Source: Candidatus Sungiibacteriota bacterium (GTDB lineage Bacteria > Patescibacteriota > Minisyncoccia > Sungbacterales > HO2-52-23). From it: a DNA stretch of 64,000 bases. The DNA is taken from contig CP066690.1 in the NCBI GenBank assembly GCA_016432465.1, positions 250,702 to 314,701 on the forward strand, read 5' to 3'. The position numbers and the translations under genes are program-made. The notes below the pieces were generated by a model. The model was not told the DNA's origin. It saw nothing but the letters and a program-made list of their open reading frames with translations, and did not search any database. Position 1 is the first letter of the stretch, and each line of letters opens with the position of its first letter. This document shows positions 4,939-31,693 of this stretch, in pieces.

Positions 4939-4984
4939 AATTTCTAACGGGGCAGGCCGAGAAGAGCGGGGGTTCGAATCCCAT

Positions 4985-5040
4985 CATCTTCTTAGACAGA
5001 ACAAAATTCTCCCTTGCGGGGAATTTTGTTCTGTCTTAAA
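4985..5040. repeat. long perfect hairpin (16-bp stem AGACAGAACAAAATTC / GAATTTTGTTCTGTCT)
   Basis: read directly; lies in the 700-bp non-coding tRNA/repeat region. Confidence 0.5.
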
Positions 5041-5235: not shown

Positions 5236-5274
5236 CATCCCTGATTGTCGGCGCGAATTTTTCCGAAGCGAGGG

Positions 5275-5366
5275 CGGCGGCGGGCATTCCGCCCCCCAAC
5301 CCCCTCCTGCCGCGCCGTCCTCGCTCTGTCTCTTGACTCAATCGCTTTAGTTTGCTAAAGTGGCGG
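5275..5366. repeat. left copy of a ~90-bp inverted repeat carrying a promoter-like TTGACT-N17-TAAAGT
   Basis: reverse complement of 7311-7400 with 1-2 mismatches over about 85 bp; the inner edge abuts the GTG start at 5368. Confidence 0.7.
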
Positions 5367-5367
5367 T

Positions 5368-5682
5368 GTGGACTGGAAAAGCAAAGAAAACAAGAGGTTA
5401 ATTCAAGCAGTCCTGGCTCTCAAAACAGACGACGAGGCCAGACGATTTTTGCGTGATTTGATGACCGAAAAAGAAATTGAGGAGTTTGCTAAACGATTGA
5501 AAGCCGCCGAAATGCTGACGGAAAAAGTACCATATTCGGTAATCGAAAGTGAAACCGGCTTGAGTTCTACTACCGTTGCTCGTGTTGCAAAGTGGTTGAA
5601 CGGAAAAGAAGGCGGCTACAGAACAATTATCAGCAAACTTCATCATCACAACTCTATCCAAACACGGAGAGGGTTGTCTTAA
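5368..5682 (+). CDS. TrpR-related YerC/YecD-family DNA-binding protein
   Basis: 104 aa; LKTxDEAxxFxxDLxTxxEIExxAxRL...GLSxTTxxRVxxxLxxGxGGY pattern typical of the YerC/YecD family. Confidence 0.7.
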   Translation: MDWKSKENKRLIQAVLALKTDDEARRFLRDLMTEKEIEEFAKRLKAAEMLTEKVPYSVIESETGLSSTTVARVAKWLNGKEGGYRTIISKLHHHNSIQTRRGLS

Positions 5683-5791
5683 TGTATTTTTTTTTTCGCA
5701 TGAAGCTAACCCCCTCCGTAATTGGAGGGGGTTTACGTTTGCCTACCCATGACAAAACGGCAAACATAGTTCCTTAAAAAAGGAGGAAGCA

Positions 5792-6460
5792 ATGGAAAAC
5801 ATCTCGCTGGTTCGGTACTCACCTAATGGTGGCGAGCACGAACTCACGGCACAACTCGTGGAGTGCTACCGTGATGTGTTCGCAGATGGGCCGTGGCACG
5901 AATGGCTCAAGTGTCCGCAGTGTCAAAAATATTGGGGTACGAGAGATAGAAGTTTTCTTGCCTCAAACAGGTTTCGCCACTGCAATACGCCACTCGTGGA
6001 CTTCTGGCCACGCGAACAAGTAGTTTGCGATCTTCATCACGAGATTACACTAGAAGCTTCATGTTGGCTTGCCATAAGCAATCTCTCGGTCATCGGTTTT
6101 TGTTGGGGTTACCCAATAACCATCATCGACCTAGAAGCAAAGCTTGGCGTTTCTTTCGGCGCCGAACTTGCATACGAACCCACGGAGCTGGTCGCATATC
6201 AGGATGAAGTAGGCGTCCTTTCTGCCTATCGTGGGCGCAAAATAGCAAAAGCGATGGTCACGCGCCGTCTCGAGGACTTTCTTGCACAAGACTTGAAAGT
6301 TGGAATAGTCAGAACGAGGCAGAGCCCGGAGTCTTCCGAAACCTTCTTGTGGTACACCAACAAGTTGGGCTATCGTATTCTTGCAAACTATCCTGGCGAA
6401 GACGGTAGAGTAGTTCTGGGTCGCAACCTCGATGGCCTCAAAGAATTGCTCGCTCCCTAA
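5792..6460 (+). CDS. putative GNAT-family acetyltransferase with N-terminal Cys4 zinc-ribbon
   Basis: CPQC...HC cluster near the N-terminus; VGVLSAYRGRKIAKAMV resembles GNAT motif A (Q/RxxGxG/A). Confidence 0.45.
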   Translation: MENISLVRYSPNGGEHELTAQLVECYRDVFADGPWHEWLKCPQCQKYWGTRDRSFLASNRFRHCNTPLVDFWPREQVVCDLHHEITLEASCWLAISNLSVIGFCWGYPITIIDLEAKLGVSFGAELAYEPTELVAYQDEVGVLSAYRGRKIAKAMVTRRLEDFLAQDLKVGIVRTRQSPESSETFLWYTNKLGYRILANYPGEDGRVVLGRNLDGLKELLAP

Positions 6461-6480
6461 CGCAACAGCCTTGCGTGATT

Positions 6481-7317
6481 TCACGCAAGGCTGTTTTTCT
6501 TTTCTCCAAACAAAAAGGCTTCTTCACCAACTTTTTCTCGGTTTCGGGCAAAAAGAATAACGGCGGCTTTCTCGGCTCTTATTTCTTGGGTTCCATCTAC
6601 TCCGATAACTTGTCCTTTCGACATTTCTTCAAAATCATCAAACGATTTTGTAAGAATAAATTTGTTGGTTTTTGTTTTGTACAAATCGTACATTCGTATA
6701 TACGATTGTTTTTGTGGCATTAGATCATTTGCAATGTGGTCACGAGCCTTAAGAAATGCGAAAATACTTTTTTCTGCAATCTGTTCTGATTGAGGATTGC
6801 CGAGAAAGCCGCACTCAATGCAAATCCCTATTTTGCCGATACTATTCATGTAGTAGTCGGTGCCGCCAGGCTCTATTTGATCAAAGCCGGACGCAATGCG
6901 TTCAACTGGCAAATACTTAATAATCCCTGTTGCATTTGCTTCGCAAATAACAAAAGGTTTGCTCGTCGACGTGCGACTCGCGTGTATATCCAAAAGTGCT
7001 TCGGCTTTATTCAAATAGGTTTTTAGAAATTGAGCGCGACTATATTCATAACTCTCTTTTTCCTTTTCTGAAAATTGTTCATTGCGATTGAACATTCTAT
7101 TTAGATTGGCCCCTACATATCGCTTATTAGCTTCAACCGCTCGTGGGTTTCCATAGCCAAATAAAACTACCCCGCGCTCAATTTCGAGGGTTGGTAAAAT
7201 TTTTTCCAATGCTTCCAGTCCACATTTTTCATCACCATGCACGCCAACCAGAACGATACTTGTCGTTCCTTTTTCTCGGCCAGTGATTTTAATAATTTCT
7301 TCAAACATTACCGCCAC
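6481..7317 (-). CDS. succinylglutamate desuccinylase / aspartoacylase (AstE/AspA) family zinc hydrolase
   Basis: VHGDEKCG (HGxE zinc-binding motif) near the N-terminus; 278 aa. Confidence 0.7.
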   Translation of the reverse strand: MAVMFEEIIKITGREKGTTSIVLVGVHGDEKCGLEALEKILPTLEIERGVVLFGYGNPRAVEANKRYVGANLNRMFNRNEQFSEKEKESYEYSRAQFLKTYLNKAEALLDIHASRTSTSKPFVICEANATGIIKYLPVERIASGFDQIEPGGTDYYMNSIGKIGICIECGFLGNPQSEQIAEKSIFAFLKARDHIANDLMPQKQSYIRMYDLYKTKTNKFILTKSFDDFEEMSKGQVIGVDGTQEIRAEKAAVILFARNREKVGEEAFLFGEKKNSLA

Positions 7318-7400
7318 TTTAGCAAACTAAAGCGATTGAGTCAAGAGGCAGAGCGAGGACGGCGCGGCAGGAGGGGGTTGGGGGGCGGAATGCCGCGCCG
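7311..7400. repeat. right copy of the ~90-bp inverted repeat (same promoter-like sequence, reading leftwards into the AstE-like gene)
   Basis: ACCGCCACTTTAGCAAACTAAAGCGATTGAGTCAAGAGGCAGAGCGAGGACGGCGCGGCAGGAGGGGGTTGGGGGGCGGAATGCC is the reverse complement of 5275-5366. Confidence 0.7.
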
Positions 7401-7639
7401 TCCGAGCAGGACATTGGCACGAGCCTCCGCCTGCCCGTTAGGGCAGAACGCCGAAACAAAATTTTCTTTCTCTTTTAGAAGAAAAAAATCTGGCGCGCGC
7501 GAAAAATCAAAAATGTAAAGAAAATTTTGTTGGGGCGTAGCCCCGCCTTTGGCGGGACGCGGAGGCGTTGAGTAGCTAGAATTTTTTAGGAATTTTTGAC
7601 AAAGTAGGTTCGAGCGGACTCATAAAGATACATTCCCAT

Positions 7640-7678
7640 AAAAACCATCCCTCTGCCATTGGCAGAGGGATGGTTTTT
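7640..7678. terminator. bidirectional terminator-like hairpin
   Basis: AAAAACCATCCCTCTGCCA-TTGG-CAGAGGGATGGTTTTTAT: 15-bp stem with A-run and T-run on either side. Confidence 0.45.
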
Positions 7679-7718
7679 ATATTAGTCTTCAAGCAGTAGT
7701 CTTTGAAAAAGGTTATTC

Positions 7719-8324
7719 ATGGAACCCGTGGAGTCGGATGAACGCACGCCCAACCTAAAACGCTATCTTGAAAAATTAGGAATCGCGCTTGGGGAGCTAT
7801 ACGGAAAAAGGATTTTAGACATCGGCGCCGGTGGTCTTTATTTTGCCAAAGAAGCATGGTTGGCGCATGAAATAAAAGTATTCTCTGTTGAGCCGGACTT
7901 AACCGAGTCTATTTCACGCTATTACGGACTATTCGCTTATGCTACGGCCTGTTGTCAAACCAGTCCCGAACTTGAGGCCTTTCAAATAACCCTAAGACGC
8001 ACCGTAAGGGCCTTCGGACAGGCGCTTCCGTTTAAAGATGAATCATTTGATTATGTGGTTTCTATTTTTGGAGTTCCTTTTATGATTAAGAACTACTTTG
8101 AAGGGTTACTTGCTATCAATGAAGGATTGCGGGTGCTTAGACACAAAGGAACACTTATTTTTTATCCCCTGGAGTCACAGTTTTTTGACATTAAAGAAAA
8201 TACGGCCCTGAAGGCAGAGATGCTTGTCTTGCGAAAATTCCCTGATTTTAGGATAGTGCTCTCGCCCTATGATGATCCCGAAGCCATGAGAACCCTAACT
8301 CGGGTTATTATCAAAAAAGGATAA
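7719..8324 (+). CDS. class I SAM-dependent methyltransferase
   Basis: motif I ILDIGAGGL followed by an acidic residue at the end of beta-2 (FSVEPD); 201 aa. Confidence 0.65.
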   Translation: MEPVESDERTPNLKRYLEKLGIALGELYGKRILDIGAGGLYFAKEAWLAHEIKVFSVEPDLTESISRYYGLFAYATACCQTSPELEAFQITLRRTVRAFGQALPFKDESFDYVVSIFGVPFMIKNYFEGLLAINEGLRVLRHKGTLIFYPLESQFFDIKENTALKAEMLVLRKFPDFRIVLSPYDDPEAMRTLTRVIIKKG

Positions 8325-23574: not shown

Positions 23575-23589
23575 AAAATTGCGATTAGG

Positions 23590-23880
23590 GGTTTTTCTTT
23601 TATTCTTTCCGTACTGGTGCGCGGGAGAGGACTTGCCTACAATTCTCGCCGGCTTCCGCCGGCTCGGTCGCAGGCCGCCCCTCGCGGTTTTGCTCGCCAA
23701 CTGCTCGCAAAACATCCCTGCGGTCTTCAAATTCTCACGCAACGCACGCAGGTGCGTTGCTTCCCTGCTCATTCGCTTCGCTCATTGCGCGGGAGAGGAT
23801 TTGAACCCCGCACTAAAATTTGCACCGGCTCCACCGAAAACAAAAGTGCAAATTTAGTGGCGGGGCATACCTCCACGCCT
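23590..23880. repeat. GC-rich region with two direct copies of a tRNA 3'-end-like sequence (GCGCGGGAGAGGA(C/T)TTG..)
   Basis: minus-strand GGTTCAAATCCTCTCCCGCGCA and GGCAAGTCCTCTCCCGCGCA; no complete cloverleaf could be built. Confidence 0.4.
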
Positions 23881-31128: not shown

Positions 31129-31693
31129 GATTGATTACGTTTAGTATTGTATTACGATGAAGCACAGTGTGACAATTATGGCAGAGCCACATTAAATTAC
31201 TTATCCTATTATTCAGGTGATTACGGTCTTTATGGTGCACGACCAGTACACGTTTGTCAGTAATCTTGCAGAAACTGCATACTTCTTCTTTTGATGCTCG
31301 TCTCAAAAAGGCGCGGTAGGAGCCGCTAGAAAAACCGCCCCTCCAGTTTAAATGCCTTGGTCCGATGTACTGCAGCGTATTACGCCAGATTGTTTGACAC
31401 GATTTGTTACAAAAATATTTCTTGCTTTTTGATTTTTGTAAATCCGCCCTTGATCTATAAATTGATTTTCCGCACAAAAAGCACGCAAGTATTTTTCCTG
31501 TTTTCTGCCCCTCGTTTTTACACTTCAGTGAACAGTACTTGCCCCAGCCGGCCCTTCTAAAGGAGGGTCGCACATAGAATCTGGATTTACAAACCCTACA
31601 CCGAGTAGCCTGCATGTAACTATAGTATAGACGCAAAGAATGAAAATGGCAAACAGGGGGCTTCAGGTTATCCACAACCTCTCGTGATAACAA
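31109..31693 (-). CDS. HNH endonuclease with N-terminal zinc-ribbons (paralog 2)
   Basis: HNH motif LVVHHKDRNHLNNRISNLMWLCHNCH; same architecture as 30634-31128; the start is probably the internal MQATRC. Confidence 0.7.
   Translation of the reverse strand: MLSREVVDNLKPPVCHFHSLRLYYSYMQATRCRVCKSRFYVRPSFRRAGWGKYCSLKCKNEGQKTGKILACFLCGKSIYRSRADLQKSKSKKYFCNKSCQTIWRNTLQYIGPRHLNWRGGFSSGSYRAFLRRASKEEVCSFCKITDKRVLVVHHKDRNHLNNRISNLMWLCHNCHTVLHRNTILNVINRAASKL

What the first reader, a model, noticed from the sequence alone, without database searches (positions are those of the whole stretch)
5275..7400. 2.1-kb segment bounded by about 90-bp inverted repeats that each carry a promoter and abut a start codon
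The left repeat (5275-5366) and right repeat (7311-7400) are reverse complements. Each contains TTGACT-N17-TAAAGT, and the start codon follows about 7-10 nt later. The left start is the GTG of the YerC-like gene at 5368. The right start is the ATG of the AstE-like gene at 7317, on the minus strand. Two unrelated genes are therefore transcribed convergently from identical, duplicated promoter and leader sequences. A GNAT gene lies between them. This could be a composite mobile or invertible cassette, or co-option of a MITE that carries a promoter.
Basis: seen in the sequence. Interest (0 to 1): 0.55.

Follow-up and report, generated by a model that had tools for sequence, protein, structure and literature searches.

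The report
Twin HisR-controlled promoters flanking a gene module
The two 85-base inverted repeats are copies of one repressor-controlled promoter, so a histidine-type regulator in this tiny-genome (CPR) bacterium probably switches off its own gene and a facing deacylase gene together; the segment is not a jumping or flipping DNA element.

Summary
Arms 5283-5367 and 7310-7394 are 85 nt with one mismatch. Each carries TTGACT-17-TAAAGT, ending 6-7 nt before a start codon.

The mobile, invertible or MITE reading is not supported. The inner 40 nt of each arm is the conserved promoter of the CPR YerC/HisR gene. It contains CGCTTTAGTTTGCTAAAGTG, a perfect fit to the published HisR operator (cacTTTA-N6-TAAAgtg).
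- In metagenome and genome scans, 111 of 124 matches lie directly 5' of hisR genes and 5 lie 5' of AstE-like genes.
- In five loci fetched through the AstE-like protein alone, that gene faces hisR and carries the operator-promoter in all five; hisR carries it in four.
- One relative places the same promoter and hisR in front of hisG-hisD.

The outer 45 nt is a G+C-rich stem-loop supported by covariation.

Within-genome promoter copies are more alike than orthologues (2 of 720 permutations reach the observed value). Repeat length ranges from about 40 to about 325 nt between genomes. This points to gene conversion.

Best reading: twin leaderless promoters let one HisR-type repressor co-regulate itself and a zinc deacylase. 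Inversion is possible but unproven and would not change expression.

The gene between them sits in a precise slot, filled by either a GNAT or a glutamate-cysteine-ligase-fold enzyme.

Novelty: a new variant of a known regulon type.

The parts
5283..5367 (+). Left inverted-repeat arm (ungapped). With one indel it extends to 5276.
   Evidence: 85 nt, 99% complementary to 7310-7394; no other copy in the window.
7310..7394 (-). Right inverted-repeat arm (ungapped). With one indel it extends to 7402.
5268..5324 (+). G+C-rich stem-loop forming the outer part of the left arm. Its right stem arm TGCCGCGCCGTCC is at 5308-5320.
   Evidence: -32.3 kcal/mol, z -3.0 on the sense strand and z -0.8 on the antisense strand; aligned with relatives.
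7357..7403 (-). G+C-rich stem-loop forming the outer part of the right arm: a 13-bp stem GGACGGCGCGGCA/TGCCGCGCCGTCC with a 21-nt C-rich loop.
   Evidence: -30.2 kcal/mol, z -5.9; 95% of cells paired across 8 genomes, against 34-53% when the partners are slid. Two pairs have compensatory change (G-C, U-A, A-U, G-U at one position). 0 of 500 shuffles reach the covariation score.
5333..5361 (+). Promoter of hisR: -35 TTGACT 5333-5338, extended-10 TG 5353-5354, -10 TAAAGT 5356-5361.
   Evidence: Conserved in 92 unique hisR promoters.
5343..5362 (.). HisR operator CGCTTTAGTTTGCTAAAGTG, overlapping the promoter spacer, the TG and the -10.
   Evidence: Sequence compared with the published consensus cacTTTAnnnnnnTAAAgtg (PMC9413887). 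These are the only two exact CTTTA-N6-TAAAG sites in the window.
5368..5682 (+). hisR: a YerC/YecD-family TrpR-like repressor of 104 aa, with a GTG start where relatives have ATG.
   Evidence: PDB 3FRW, 3G1C, 3KOR. ATG in relatives.
5683..5791 (+). Conserved leader between hisR and the middle gene. It holds a terminator-like hairpin at 5708-5733 with a U-rich tail, a second hairpin at 5737-5765, and SD AGGAGG at 5781-5786 that can pair with TTCCTT at 5770-5775.
   Evidence: 18 unique loci, with 3 pairs of hairpin 2 showing compensatory change.
5792..6460 (+). Middle-slot gene: a GNAT-type acyltransferase of 222 aa with a Cys-rich insert. In relatives it is replaced exactly, ORF for ORF, by a 295-aa enzyme with a glutamate-cysteine-ligase fold.
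6464..6495 (.). Terminator hairpin between the convergent genes. It overlaps the 3' end of the AstE-like gene.
   Evidence: (I9). Conserved in GNAT-type and ligase-type modules.
6481..7308 (-). AstE/AspA-family zinc deacylase-like gene, 275 aa, starting at ATG 7308.
   Evidence: P0001 is 100% identical and 275 aa.
7316..7344 (-). Promoter of the AstE-like gene: -35 at 7344-7339 and -10 at 7321-7316, identical to the hisR promoter.
7315..7334 (.). Second HisR operator copy.

Best explanation
Each repeat arm is a compact regulatory unit: a G+C-rich stem-loop followed by a sigma-70-type promoter (TTGACT, 17 nt, TGc-TAAAGT). The spacer and -10 of that promoter are occupied by a 20-bp HisR operator, and the -10 ends 6-7 nt before the start codon. 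The transcripts should therefore be leaderless or nearly so. One copy drives hisR, a YerC/TrpR-family repressor. A duplicate drives the facing AstE/AspA-type zinc deacylase gene.

When the HisR dimer is loaded with its amino-acid co-repressor (most likely histidine), it should bind both operators, block RNA polymerase, and shut off its own gene and the deacylase together. When the effector is scarce, both genes are expressed.

The near-identity of the arms beyond the operator is best explained by gene conversion between the two inverted copies. The deacylase, together with the amide-forming enzyme in the middle slot, probably handles an N-acylated amino acid, possibly a histidine conjugate.

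Shown: the repeat, the promoter and operator sequences, their conservation and gene association, concerted evolution, and the histidine-operon link in a relative.

Inferred: the transcription start sites, HisR binding, the identity of the effector, and the enzyme substrates.
For: - Repeat and promoter.
- Operator: both arms contain CGCTTTAGTTTGCTAAAGTG. The published HisR consensus is cacTTTAnnnnnnTAAAgtg, with histidine-dependent binding shown in vitro for R. gnavus HisR and frequent autoregulation (PMC9413887).
- Regulator: it passes the YerC/YecD NCBIfam cutoff, and its nearest solved structures are HisR-type proteins including 3G1C.
- Gene association: 111 of 124 matches to the relaxed pattern lie 5' of hisR genes and 5 lie 5' of AstE-like genes.
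- Promoter conservation: in 92 unique hisR promoters the ATG lies 6-7 nt after the -10 in 76, and the unconstrained centre TTTG is kept in 82.
- Loci chosen only through the AstE-like protein: all five put that gene convergent with hisR; the AstE-like gene carries the operator-promoter in all five and hisR in four of five.
- Specificity: 15 of 15 strict operator sites in 78 kb of relatives' DNA lie at these two genes.
- Histidine link: L004 has the same promoter and hisR leading hisG and hisD.
- Leaderless reading: hisR and the AstE-like gene lack an SD, whereas the GNAT has AGGAGG.
- Concerted evolution: within-genome identity at variable positions is 0.68 against 0.47 between genomes, reached by 2 of 720 permutations. 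The window arms are 98% alike upstream of the -35, against 80-82% to the orthologous copies. Repeat length runs from about 40 nt to 192+82 nt in L133.
Against: - There is no transcription-start or binding data for any CPR organism.
- The acidic helix-2 residues that the HisR paper proposes for histidine recognition are only partly conserved in the window protein, so the effector could be another amino acid.
- AstE/AspA enzymes have no documented link to histidine and are absent from published HisR regulons.
- The window's hisR starts with GTG, which is a weaker start for a leaderless mRNA, and no identical product is on record.
- Some close relatives have hisR without an AstE-like gene nearby (L114, L130).
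- Selection on a shared regulatory unit, rather than gene conversion, could account for part of the arm identity.
Confidence: 0.78

Rival explanations
1. The arms are substrates for homologous recombination that physically inverts the 2-kb module, and that inversion is the point of the structure (an invertible cassette).
For: An 85-nt, 99% identical inverted repeat is long enough for RecA-type recombination. Arms show concerted evolution, which needs physical exchange between them. Non-coding sequence from the window's right flank adjoins hisR in L003, L053 and L131, but adjoins the AstE-like gene in the window and L067.
Against: L133 has that same flank on both sides as part of a 192+82-nt repeat, so the flank comparison does not demonstrate inversion. 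Both promoters lie inside the arms and face inward, so inversion leaves every gene on an identical promoter and has no regulatory consequence. No recombinase lies within about 5 kb. No pair of contigs with the same flanks and opposite module orientation was found.
Confidence: 0.12
2. The arm is a small mobile element (a MITE or similar) carrying an outward promoter that happened to land in front of two genes.
For: The arm is compact, has internal dyad symmetry (stem-loop and palindrome), and carries a promoter.
Against: There are only two copies in 64 kb. Across public contigs the element is tied to hisR (111 of 124) and AstE-like genes (5 of 124) at a fixed distance from the start codon. It is conserved down to relatives with about 50% HisR identity. 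The arm has no terminal inverted repeats of its own and no target-site duplication is visible in the sequence.
Confidence: 0.03
3. The TTGACT-17-TAAAGT match is not the working promoter. Instead both genes are transcribed from further upstream through the structured flanks, and the palindrome acts as a roadblock or an RNA element in a long leader.
For: The upstream flanks are long (about 400 nt) and rich in conserved hairpins. G-U pairs in the stem-loop fit an RNA read in the sense direction. In this region the simple promoter scan finds no more hits than shuffled sequence does.
Against: Most CPR hisR genes lack these flanks yet keep the -35, the spacing, the -10 and the 6-7 nt distance to the ATG. 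There is no SD in front of either gene, although the organism uses SD elsewhere. An internal AUG in a long leader would therefore be poorly translated. Non-CPR relatives (L014, L033) keep the same promoter-operator but add a normal SD leader.
Confidence: 0.07

Closest known systems
HisR (B. subtilis YerC) histidine regulons of Firmicutes, Actinobacteria and Synergistetes (Ashniev et al. 2022, PMC9413887)
   Same: The regulator family is the same (YerC/YecD; nearest structures 3FRW, 3G1C, 3KOR). The 20-bp palindrome is the same (cTTTA-N6-TAAAg). The operator lies in the promoter of the target genes, and hisR is autoregulated. A relative (L004) has hisR in front of hisG-hisD.
   Different: CPR genomes are not covered by that work. 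The second target here is an AstE/AspA-type deacylase, not his biosynthesis or histidine transport genes. The promoters are leaderless. The two sites sit in long inverted repeats that evolve in concert. The histidine effector is not established for the CPR protein.
E. coli TrpR regulon with autoregulated trpR (established knowledge)
   Same: A small TrpR-fold dimer with an amino-acid co-repressor binds palindromic operators that overlap promoters of its own gene and of unlinked targets.
   Different: The operator sequence is different (TGTACTnGTnnACnAGTACA, as quoted in PMC9413887). The window protein scores far below the TrpR equivalog cutoff (23 against 67 bits). Targets and effector differ.
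Leaderless repressor genes such as lambda cI from PRM, and the leaderless transcriptomes of Mycobacterium and Streptomyces (established knowledge; the Cortes 2013 and Jeong 2016 papers are in the reference list of PMC12641261)
   Same: The -10 lies about 7 nt before the start codon, there is no Shine-Dalgarno, and the start codon would sit at the 5' end of the mRNA.
   Different: Transcription starts are not mapped here. The arrangement is conserved for one gene family across a radiation rather than being genome-wide. The middle gene in the same module uses a strong SD.
Invertible promoter switches (E. coli fimS, Bacteroides invertons; established knowledge)
   Same: Inverted repeats bound a DNA segment that is associated with promoters.
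   Different: In those systems the promoter lies between short repeats and a site-specific recombinase flips it to turn genes on or off. Here the promoters are inside the repeats and face inward, no recombinase is nearby, and inversion would not change expression.
Concerted evolution of inverted duplicate genes by gene conversion, e.g. tufA/tufB in Salmonella (established knowledge)
   Same: Two inverted copies in one chromosome stay more alike than their orthologues do, and the same recombination can invert the interval between them.
   Different: The copies here are regulatory DNA of 40-325 nt, not coding genes, and they lie only about 2 kb apart.

Membership tests
HisR (YerC/YecD) repressor and regulon | The regulator belongs to the YerC/YecD branch of the TrpR family. 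| tested here: met
   TIGR02531 scores 67.5 bits (cutoff 42.2), while the TrpR equivalog scores only 23 bits (cutoff 67). Best PDB matches are 3FRW, 3G1C and 3KOR.
HisR (YerC/YecD) repressor and regulon | A 20-bp palindromic operator, cacTTTA-N6-TAAAgtg, in the promoter region of the target genes. | tested here: met
   CGCTTTAGTTTGCTAAAGTG lies at 5343-5362 and 7315-7334. The consensus comes from PMC9413887.
HisR (YerC/YecD) repressor and regulon | HTH recognition residues typical of HisR (conserved Tyr, TG.S..T..R). | tested here: met
   The window has Y..I....TGLSSTTVARV aligned to E. eligens Y..I....TGASTATISRV. The residue description is from PMC9413887. One position is Thr instead of the usual Ala.
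HisR (YerC/YecD) repressor and regulon | Histidine acts as the co-repressor. | not testable with these tools
   Indirect support only: relative L004 has hisR-hisG-hisD under the same promoter. The acidic helix-2 residues are only partly conserved.
HisR (YerC/YecD) repressor and regulon | Targets are histidine biosynthesis or histidine uptake genes. | tested here: not met
   The targets in the window are hisR itself and an AstE/AspA-type deacylase. No such target appears in the published regulons.
Leaderless mRNA | The transcript 5' end lies at, or within a few nt of, the start codon, and there is no SD. | tested here: inconclusive
   The geometry fits: the -10 ends 6 and 7 nt before GTG 5368 and ATG 7308, there is no SD, and 76 of 92 relatives have 6-7 nt spacing. 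Transcription starts were not measured.
Invertible promoter switch | The promoter lies between the inverted repeats, so inversion changes which gene it faces. | tested here: not met
   Both promoters are inside the arms and point inward towards fixed genes.
Invertible promoter switch | A dedicated site-specific recombinase is encoded nearby. | tested here: not met
   No recombinase family appears among ORFs within about 5 kb.
MITE / mobile promoter element | Many copies in a genome, next to unrelated genes. | tested here: not met
   There are two copies in 64 kb. 116 of 124 public matches lie at hisR or AstE-like genes. The whole source genome could not be scanned.
Composite transposon | The arms are insertion sequences that encode a transposase. 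| tested here: not met
   The arms are 85 nt of non-coding regulatory DNA.

The most novel reading that the evidence does not exclude
The module is a histidine-responsive make-and-break system for an N-acylated or gamma-glutamylated amino acid, most likely a histidine conjugate, in a reduced-genome CPR bacterium. The twin HisR promoters gate the hydrolase (AstE-like) and the regulator. A fixed expression slot behind a conserved structured leader holds interchangeable amide-forming enzymes (GNAT or a glutamate-cysteine-ligase-fold enzyme). The inverted arms double as recombination handles that keep the promoters identical and may flip the module or help exchange it between strains.
Probability: 0.2. 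Interest if true: 0.65.

Novelty: new variant of a known kind. Interest (0 to 1): 0.45.

Why it matters
Almost nothing is known about transcriptional regulation in CPR/Patescibacteria, which cannot be grown alone. This finding gives a concrete, testable regulon for a widespread CPR regulator. It specifies a defined 20-bp operator, a predicted leaderless promoter architecture conserved in about a hundred environmental contigs, and a new target class (an AstE/AspA-type deacylase paired with swappable amide-forming enzymes). It extends the HisR family beyond the phyla where it was described. It suggests how an organism with minimal biosynthesis might tune release of an amino acid from a conjugate. 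It is also a clean small example of concerted evolution of regulatory DNA in inverted orientation.

Tried and rejected
- **Inversion inferred from flank swapping.** Sequence from the window's right flank adjoins hisR in L003, L053 and L131. I first read this as evidence for inversion. I withdrew that after L133 showed the same flank on both sides within a 192+82-nt repeat.
- **Exact-protein look-ups of the source contig.** These failed for HisR and for P0001, so I could not scan the whole 923-kb genome for further arm copies or operators.
- **Rfam scans.** Scans at gathering and at permissive thresholds found only tRNAs. Nothing credible turned up in the arms, the flanks or the hisR-GNAT leader.
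- **Looser operator scans of the window.** CTTTA-N6-TAAAG with one mismatch, and the TTTA-N6-TAAA core, gave no more sites than chance beyond the two in the arms.
- **Sequence searches for the 295-aa alternative middle protein.** These gave nothing usable: Pfam gave one member at E 0.006, and the PDB profile search gave E near 1. Only structure prediction plus fold search placed it.
- **DnaA box as origin of replication.** I considered that the DnaA box seen at many CPR hisR promoters marks an origin. I rejected this because the box is solitary.
- **Shine-Dalgarno census of the window.** This was only semi-quantitative, because the start codons are uncertain.
Full report
**1. The observation**

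The inverted repeat is real. The repeat finder reports arms 5283-5367 and 7310-7394, 85 nt, 99% complementary, 1942 nt apart. The one mismatch is at 5329. Neither half of the arm occurs elsewhere in the 64-kb window, and shuffles give an expectation of 0.00.

Both arms contain TTGACT, 17 nt, TAAAGT with a TG just before the -10. The -10 ends 6 nt before GTG 5368 on the plus strand and 7 nt before ATG 7308 on the minus strand.

One correction is needed: the AstE-like gene starts at 7308, not 7317. The GTG at 7317 overlaps the -10 and is GTA in the relative L001. The 275-aa product from 7308 is the one on record.

The three genes are:
- a YerC/TrpR-family protein (Pfam 2e-19; NCBIfam TIGR02531 67.5 bits, above its 42.2 cutoff);
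- a weak GNAT, whose homologue in L027 passes the Pfam cutoff;
- an AstE/AspA-family zinc hydrolase (2e-20).

The 100%-identical AstE-like protein is named by NCBI as coming from a Candidatus Sungiibacteriota MAG with a 923-kb contig. The 16 scattered tRNA genes fit a CPR genome.

**2. What the arms are**

A 29-nt core of the arm was found exactly in three other CPR genomes. It lies upstream of an AstE-like gene in L001 and upstream of YerC-like genes in L002 and L003.

Of 124 matches in total:
- 108 lie directly 5' of YerC-like ORFs;
- 3 more lie 5' of more divergent YerC homologues that have a normal SD leader;
- 5 lie 5' of AstE-like genes;
- 8 lie elsewhere.

Among 92 unique YerC promoters, the ATG lies 6-7 nt after the -10 in 76. 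Positions the pattern did not fix are also conserved: the centre TTTG in 82, and an upstream half-site ACTTTA(C/G/T) in 68.

The literature explains the palindrome. B. subtilis YerC is HisR, a TrpR-family histidine repressor. Its operator consensus is cacTTTAnnnnnnTAAAgtg. Histidine-dependent binding has been shown in vitro for R. gnavus HisR, and autoregulation was reported in 183 genomes (PMC9413887).

Both window arms contain CGCTTTAGTTTGCTAAAGTG, at 5343-5362 and 7315-7334. These are the only exact CTTTA-N6-TAAAG sites in the window. The site overlaps the spacer, the extended-10 TG and the -10, which is the position expected of a repressor. The window protein's nearest solved structures are the HisR-type proteins 3FRW, 3G1C and 3KOR, and its HTH matches the HisR signature.

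A relative, L004, has 69% HisR identity and the same promoter geometry. There, hisR leads directly into hisG (4e-51), hisD (9e-141) and a glutamine amidotransferase, with a HisC-like aminotransferase upstream. This links the clade to histidine independently of the operator match.

**3. The twin-promoter module is conserved**

I fetched loci through the AstE-like protein alone (63-73% identity), so they were not selected by the DNA pattern. In all five distinct loci the AstE-like gene is convergent with a Trp_repressor gene. The AstE-like gene carries TTGAC., cTTTA-N6-TAAAg(T) and an ATG 6-7 nt after the -10 in all five. hisR does so in four; in L127 its left half-site has decayed.

In 78 kb of relatives' DNA, 15 of 15 strict operator sites lie 5' of these two genes.

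The association is not universal. L114 and L130 have hisR without an AstE-like gene nearby. L045 places a distant AstE-like gene directly behind hisR in the same direction.

hisR and the AstE-like gene have no SD, while the GNAT in the same module has AAAAAGGAGGAAGCA-ATG. This supports the leaderless reading for the two outer genes.

**4. Why the arms are 85 nt and nearly identical**

The outer 45 nt of each arm is a G+C-rich stem-loop. Its stem is GGACGGCGCGGCA/TGCCGCGCCGTCC and its loop is about 21 nt.
- It is stable on the sense strand in both arms (z -5.9 and -3.0). The left copy is not stable on the antisense strand (z -0.8).
- Across eight genomes, 95% of cells pair, against 34-53% for the slid controls.
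- One position shows G-C, U-A, A-U and G-U, and another shows C-G and G-C.
- No shuffle out of 500 reaches the covariation score. I built that alignment from the two stem arms joined by an artificial linker.

The function of the stem-loop is not established. An insulator or terminator for upstream transcription is a reasonable guess.

Concerted evolution is supported. Upstream of the -35, the two window arms are 98% identical, but only 80-82% identical to the orthologous copies in L003 and L053. Over six genomes with both copies, identity at the 22 variable promoter positions averages 0.68 within genomes and 0.47 between genomes. Only 2 of 720 pairings reach the observed value.

Repeat length varies widely: 11-22 nt exact runs in L124, L128 and L129, a 41-nt exact run in L126, 85 nt here, and 192 nt at 96% plus 82 nt at 85% in L133. 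Gene conversion between the inverted copies is the simplest explanation.

**5. Inversion and mobility**

I first took flank homology as evidence of inversion. Window right-flank sequence sits next to hisR in L003, L053 and L131, but next to the AstE-like gene in the window and L067. L133 carries that flank on both sides, so the argument fails and inversion remains unproven.

Inversion would also be silent for expression, because both promoters lie inside the arms and face inward. No recombinase or transposase lies within about 5 kb. The element's strict tie to two gene families rules out a MITE, as far as public contigs can show.

**6. The rest of the segment**

The gene between hisR and the AstE-like gene occupies a precise slot. 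In relatives it is one of the following:
- the GNAT with a Cys-rich insert;
- an unrelated 295-aa protein;
- absent.

The 295-aa protein has no useful sequence match. Its predicted structure (pLDDT 90.9, pTM 0.89) matches plant glutamate-cysteine ligase (TM 0.74, E 2e-10), YbdK-type carboxylate-amine ligases and glutamine synthetases.

Homology between GNAT-type and ligase-type modules runs through the leader and SD up to the ATG. It resumes at the stop codon with the terminator hairpin. Both fillers make amide bonds and the AstE-like enzyme breaks them. This suggests, but does not show, a make-and-break pair for an N-acylated amino acid.

The 110-nt leader (5683-5791) is conserved in 18 unique loci. 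It holds a near-invariant terminator-like hairpin and a second hairpin with three compensatory pairs.

**7. Comparison and verdict**

This works like a HisR/TrpR-type autoregulated regulon. It passes the family, operator and HTH tests. It fails the "targets are his biosynthesis or transport genes" test. The histidine effector could not be tested.

It is not an invertible switch, a MITE or a composite transposon.

I rate it a new variant of a known kind: HisR extended to CPR, leaderless twin promoters in concerted inverted repeats, and a new target module. Interest is moderate (0.45).

Noticed in passing
Related loci (e.g. L008, L010, L011, L015, L020; inverted form in L039, L047, L057, L097). 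Not present in the window arms; the window's only TTATCCACA is at 31668-31676.: About half of CPR hisR promoters (44 of 92 unique) carry an exact DnaA-box sequence TTATCCACA starting 26-29 nt upstream of the -35. It is a solitary box, not an origin-like cluster. 50 of the 77 exact boxes in 824 kb of fetched loci are these. This suggests DnaA input into hisR transcription in CPR. The window's clade has the G+C-rich stem-loop at that position instead.
   Followed up: partly
Most CPR hisR promoters in L004-L123, compared with window 5333-5362.: Most CPR hisR promoters have two abutting HisR sites (ACTTTA-cttgac-TAAAGT, then ACTTTA-gtttgc-TAAAGT), so the -35 sits inside the first site. The window's clade keeps only the second site.
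   Followed up: partly
window 5792-6460 and its equivalents in L067, L017, L133, L129, L131, L114: The middle gene is swapped exactly, ORF for ORF, between a GNAT and a 295-aa enzyme with a glutamate-cysteine-ligase fold. The leader, SD and terminator stay conserved. Many metagenome contigs break inside this slot (L003, L053, L131, L132, L134, L001, L005), which suggests strain-level variation.
   Followed up: yes
window 5683-5791: The hisR-to-middle-gene leader is conserved more strongly than the flanking proteins. It has two hairpins (5708-5733 and 5737-5765) and an SD that can pair with an upstream TTCCTT. It could be a terminator plus a translational control element. There is no Rfam match.
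   Followed up: partly
window 7357-7403 and 7448-7538; L041, L017, L131, L133, L053: Hairpin loops are flipped between genomes while the stems are kept. The stem-loop loop reads TTCCGCCCCCCAACCCCCTCC in the window, and L003 and L053 carry diverged loops in that same C-rich orientation. It is close to the reverse complement of that in L041, L017, L131, L133 and the L067 AstE side. The long A+T-rich hairpin at 7448-7538 is likewise flipped in L053.
   Followed up: partly
window 7395-7640: The right flank is a conserved non-coding region found next to this promoter in L003, L053, L131, L067 and on both sides in L133. It holds nested hairpins closed by GCCTCCGC/GCGGAGGC and a conserved 47-nt stretch at 7585-7631. 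Its function is unknown and there is no Rfam hit.
   Followed up: partly
window 5368: The window's hisR begins with GTG, where every relative examined has ATG at the homologous position. No database protein is identical to it (best 92%), although the AstE-like neighbour has a 100% match.
   Followed up: partly
window 23589-23765 and L003 1751-1867: A non-coding-looking stretch is 83% identical between the window and L003. It lies near tRNA-Leu and has no Rfam match. Its nature is unknown.
   Followed up: partly
window 4940-4990: Directly after tRNA-Val(tac) there is a sequence resembling a tRNA T-arm (GCGGGGGTTCGAATCCC) that ARAGORN and Rfam do not call as a tRNA. A similar stretch occurs upstream of hisR in L017.
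   Followed up: no
window 7598-7718: A perfect 21-bp hairpin with a T-run (7638-7680) lies between a conserved TTGACA-containing stretch and the methyltransferase start at 7719. It could be an attenuator-type leader or a terminator shared with the minus strand.
   Followed up: no
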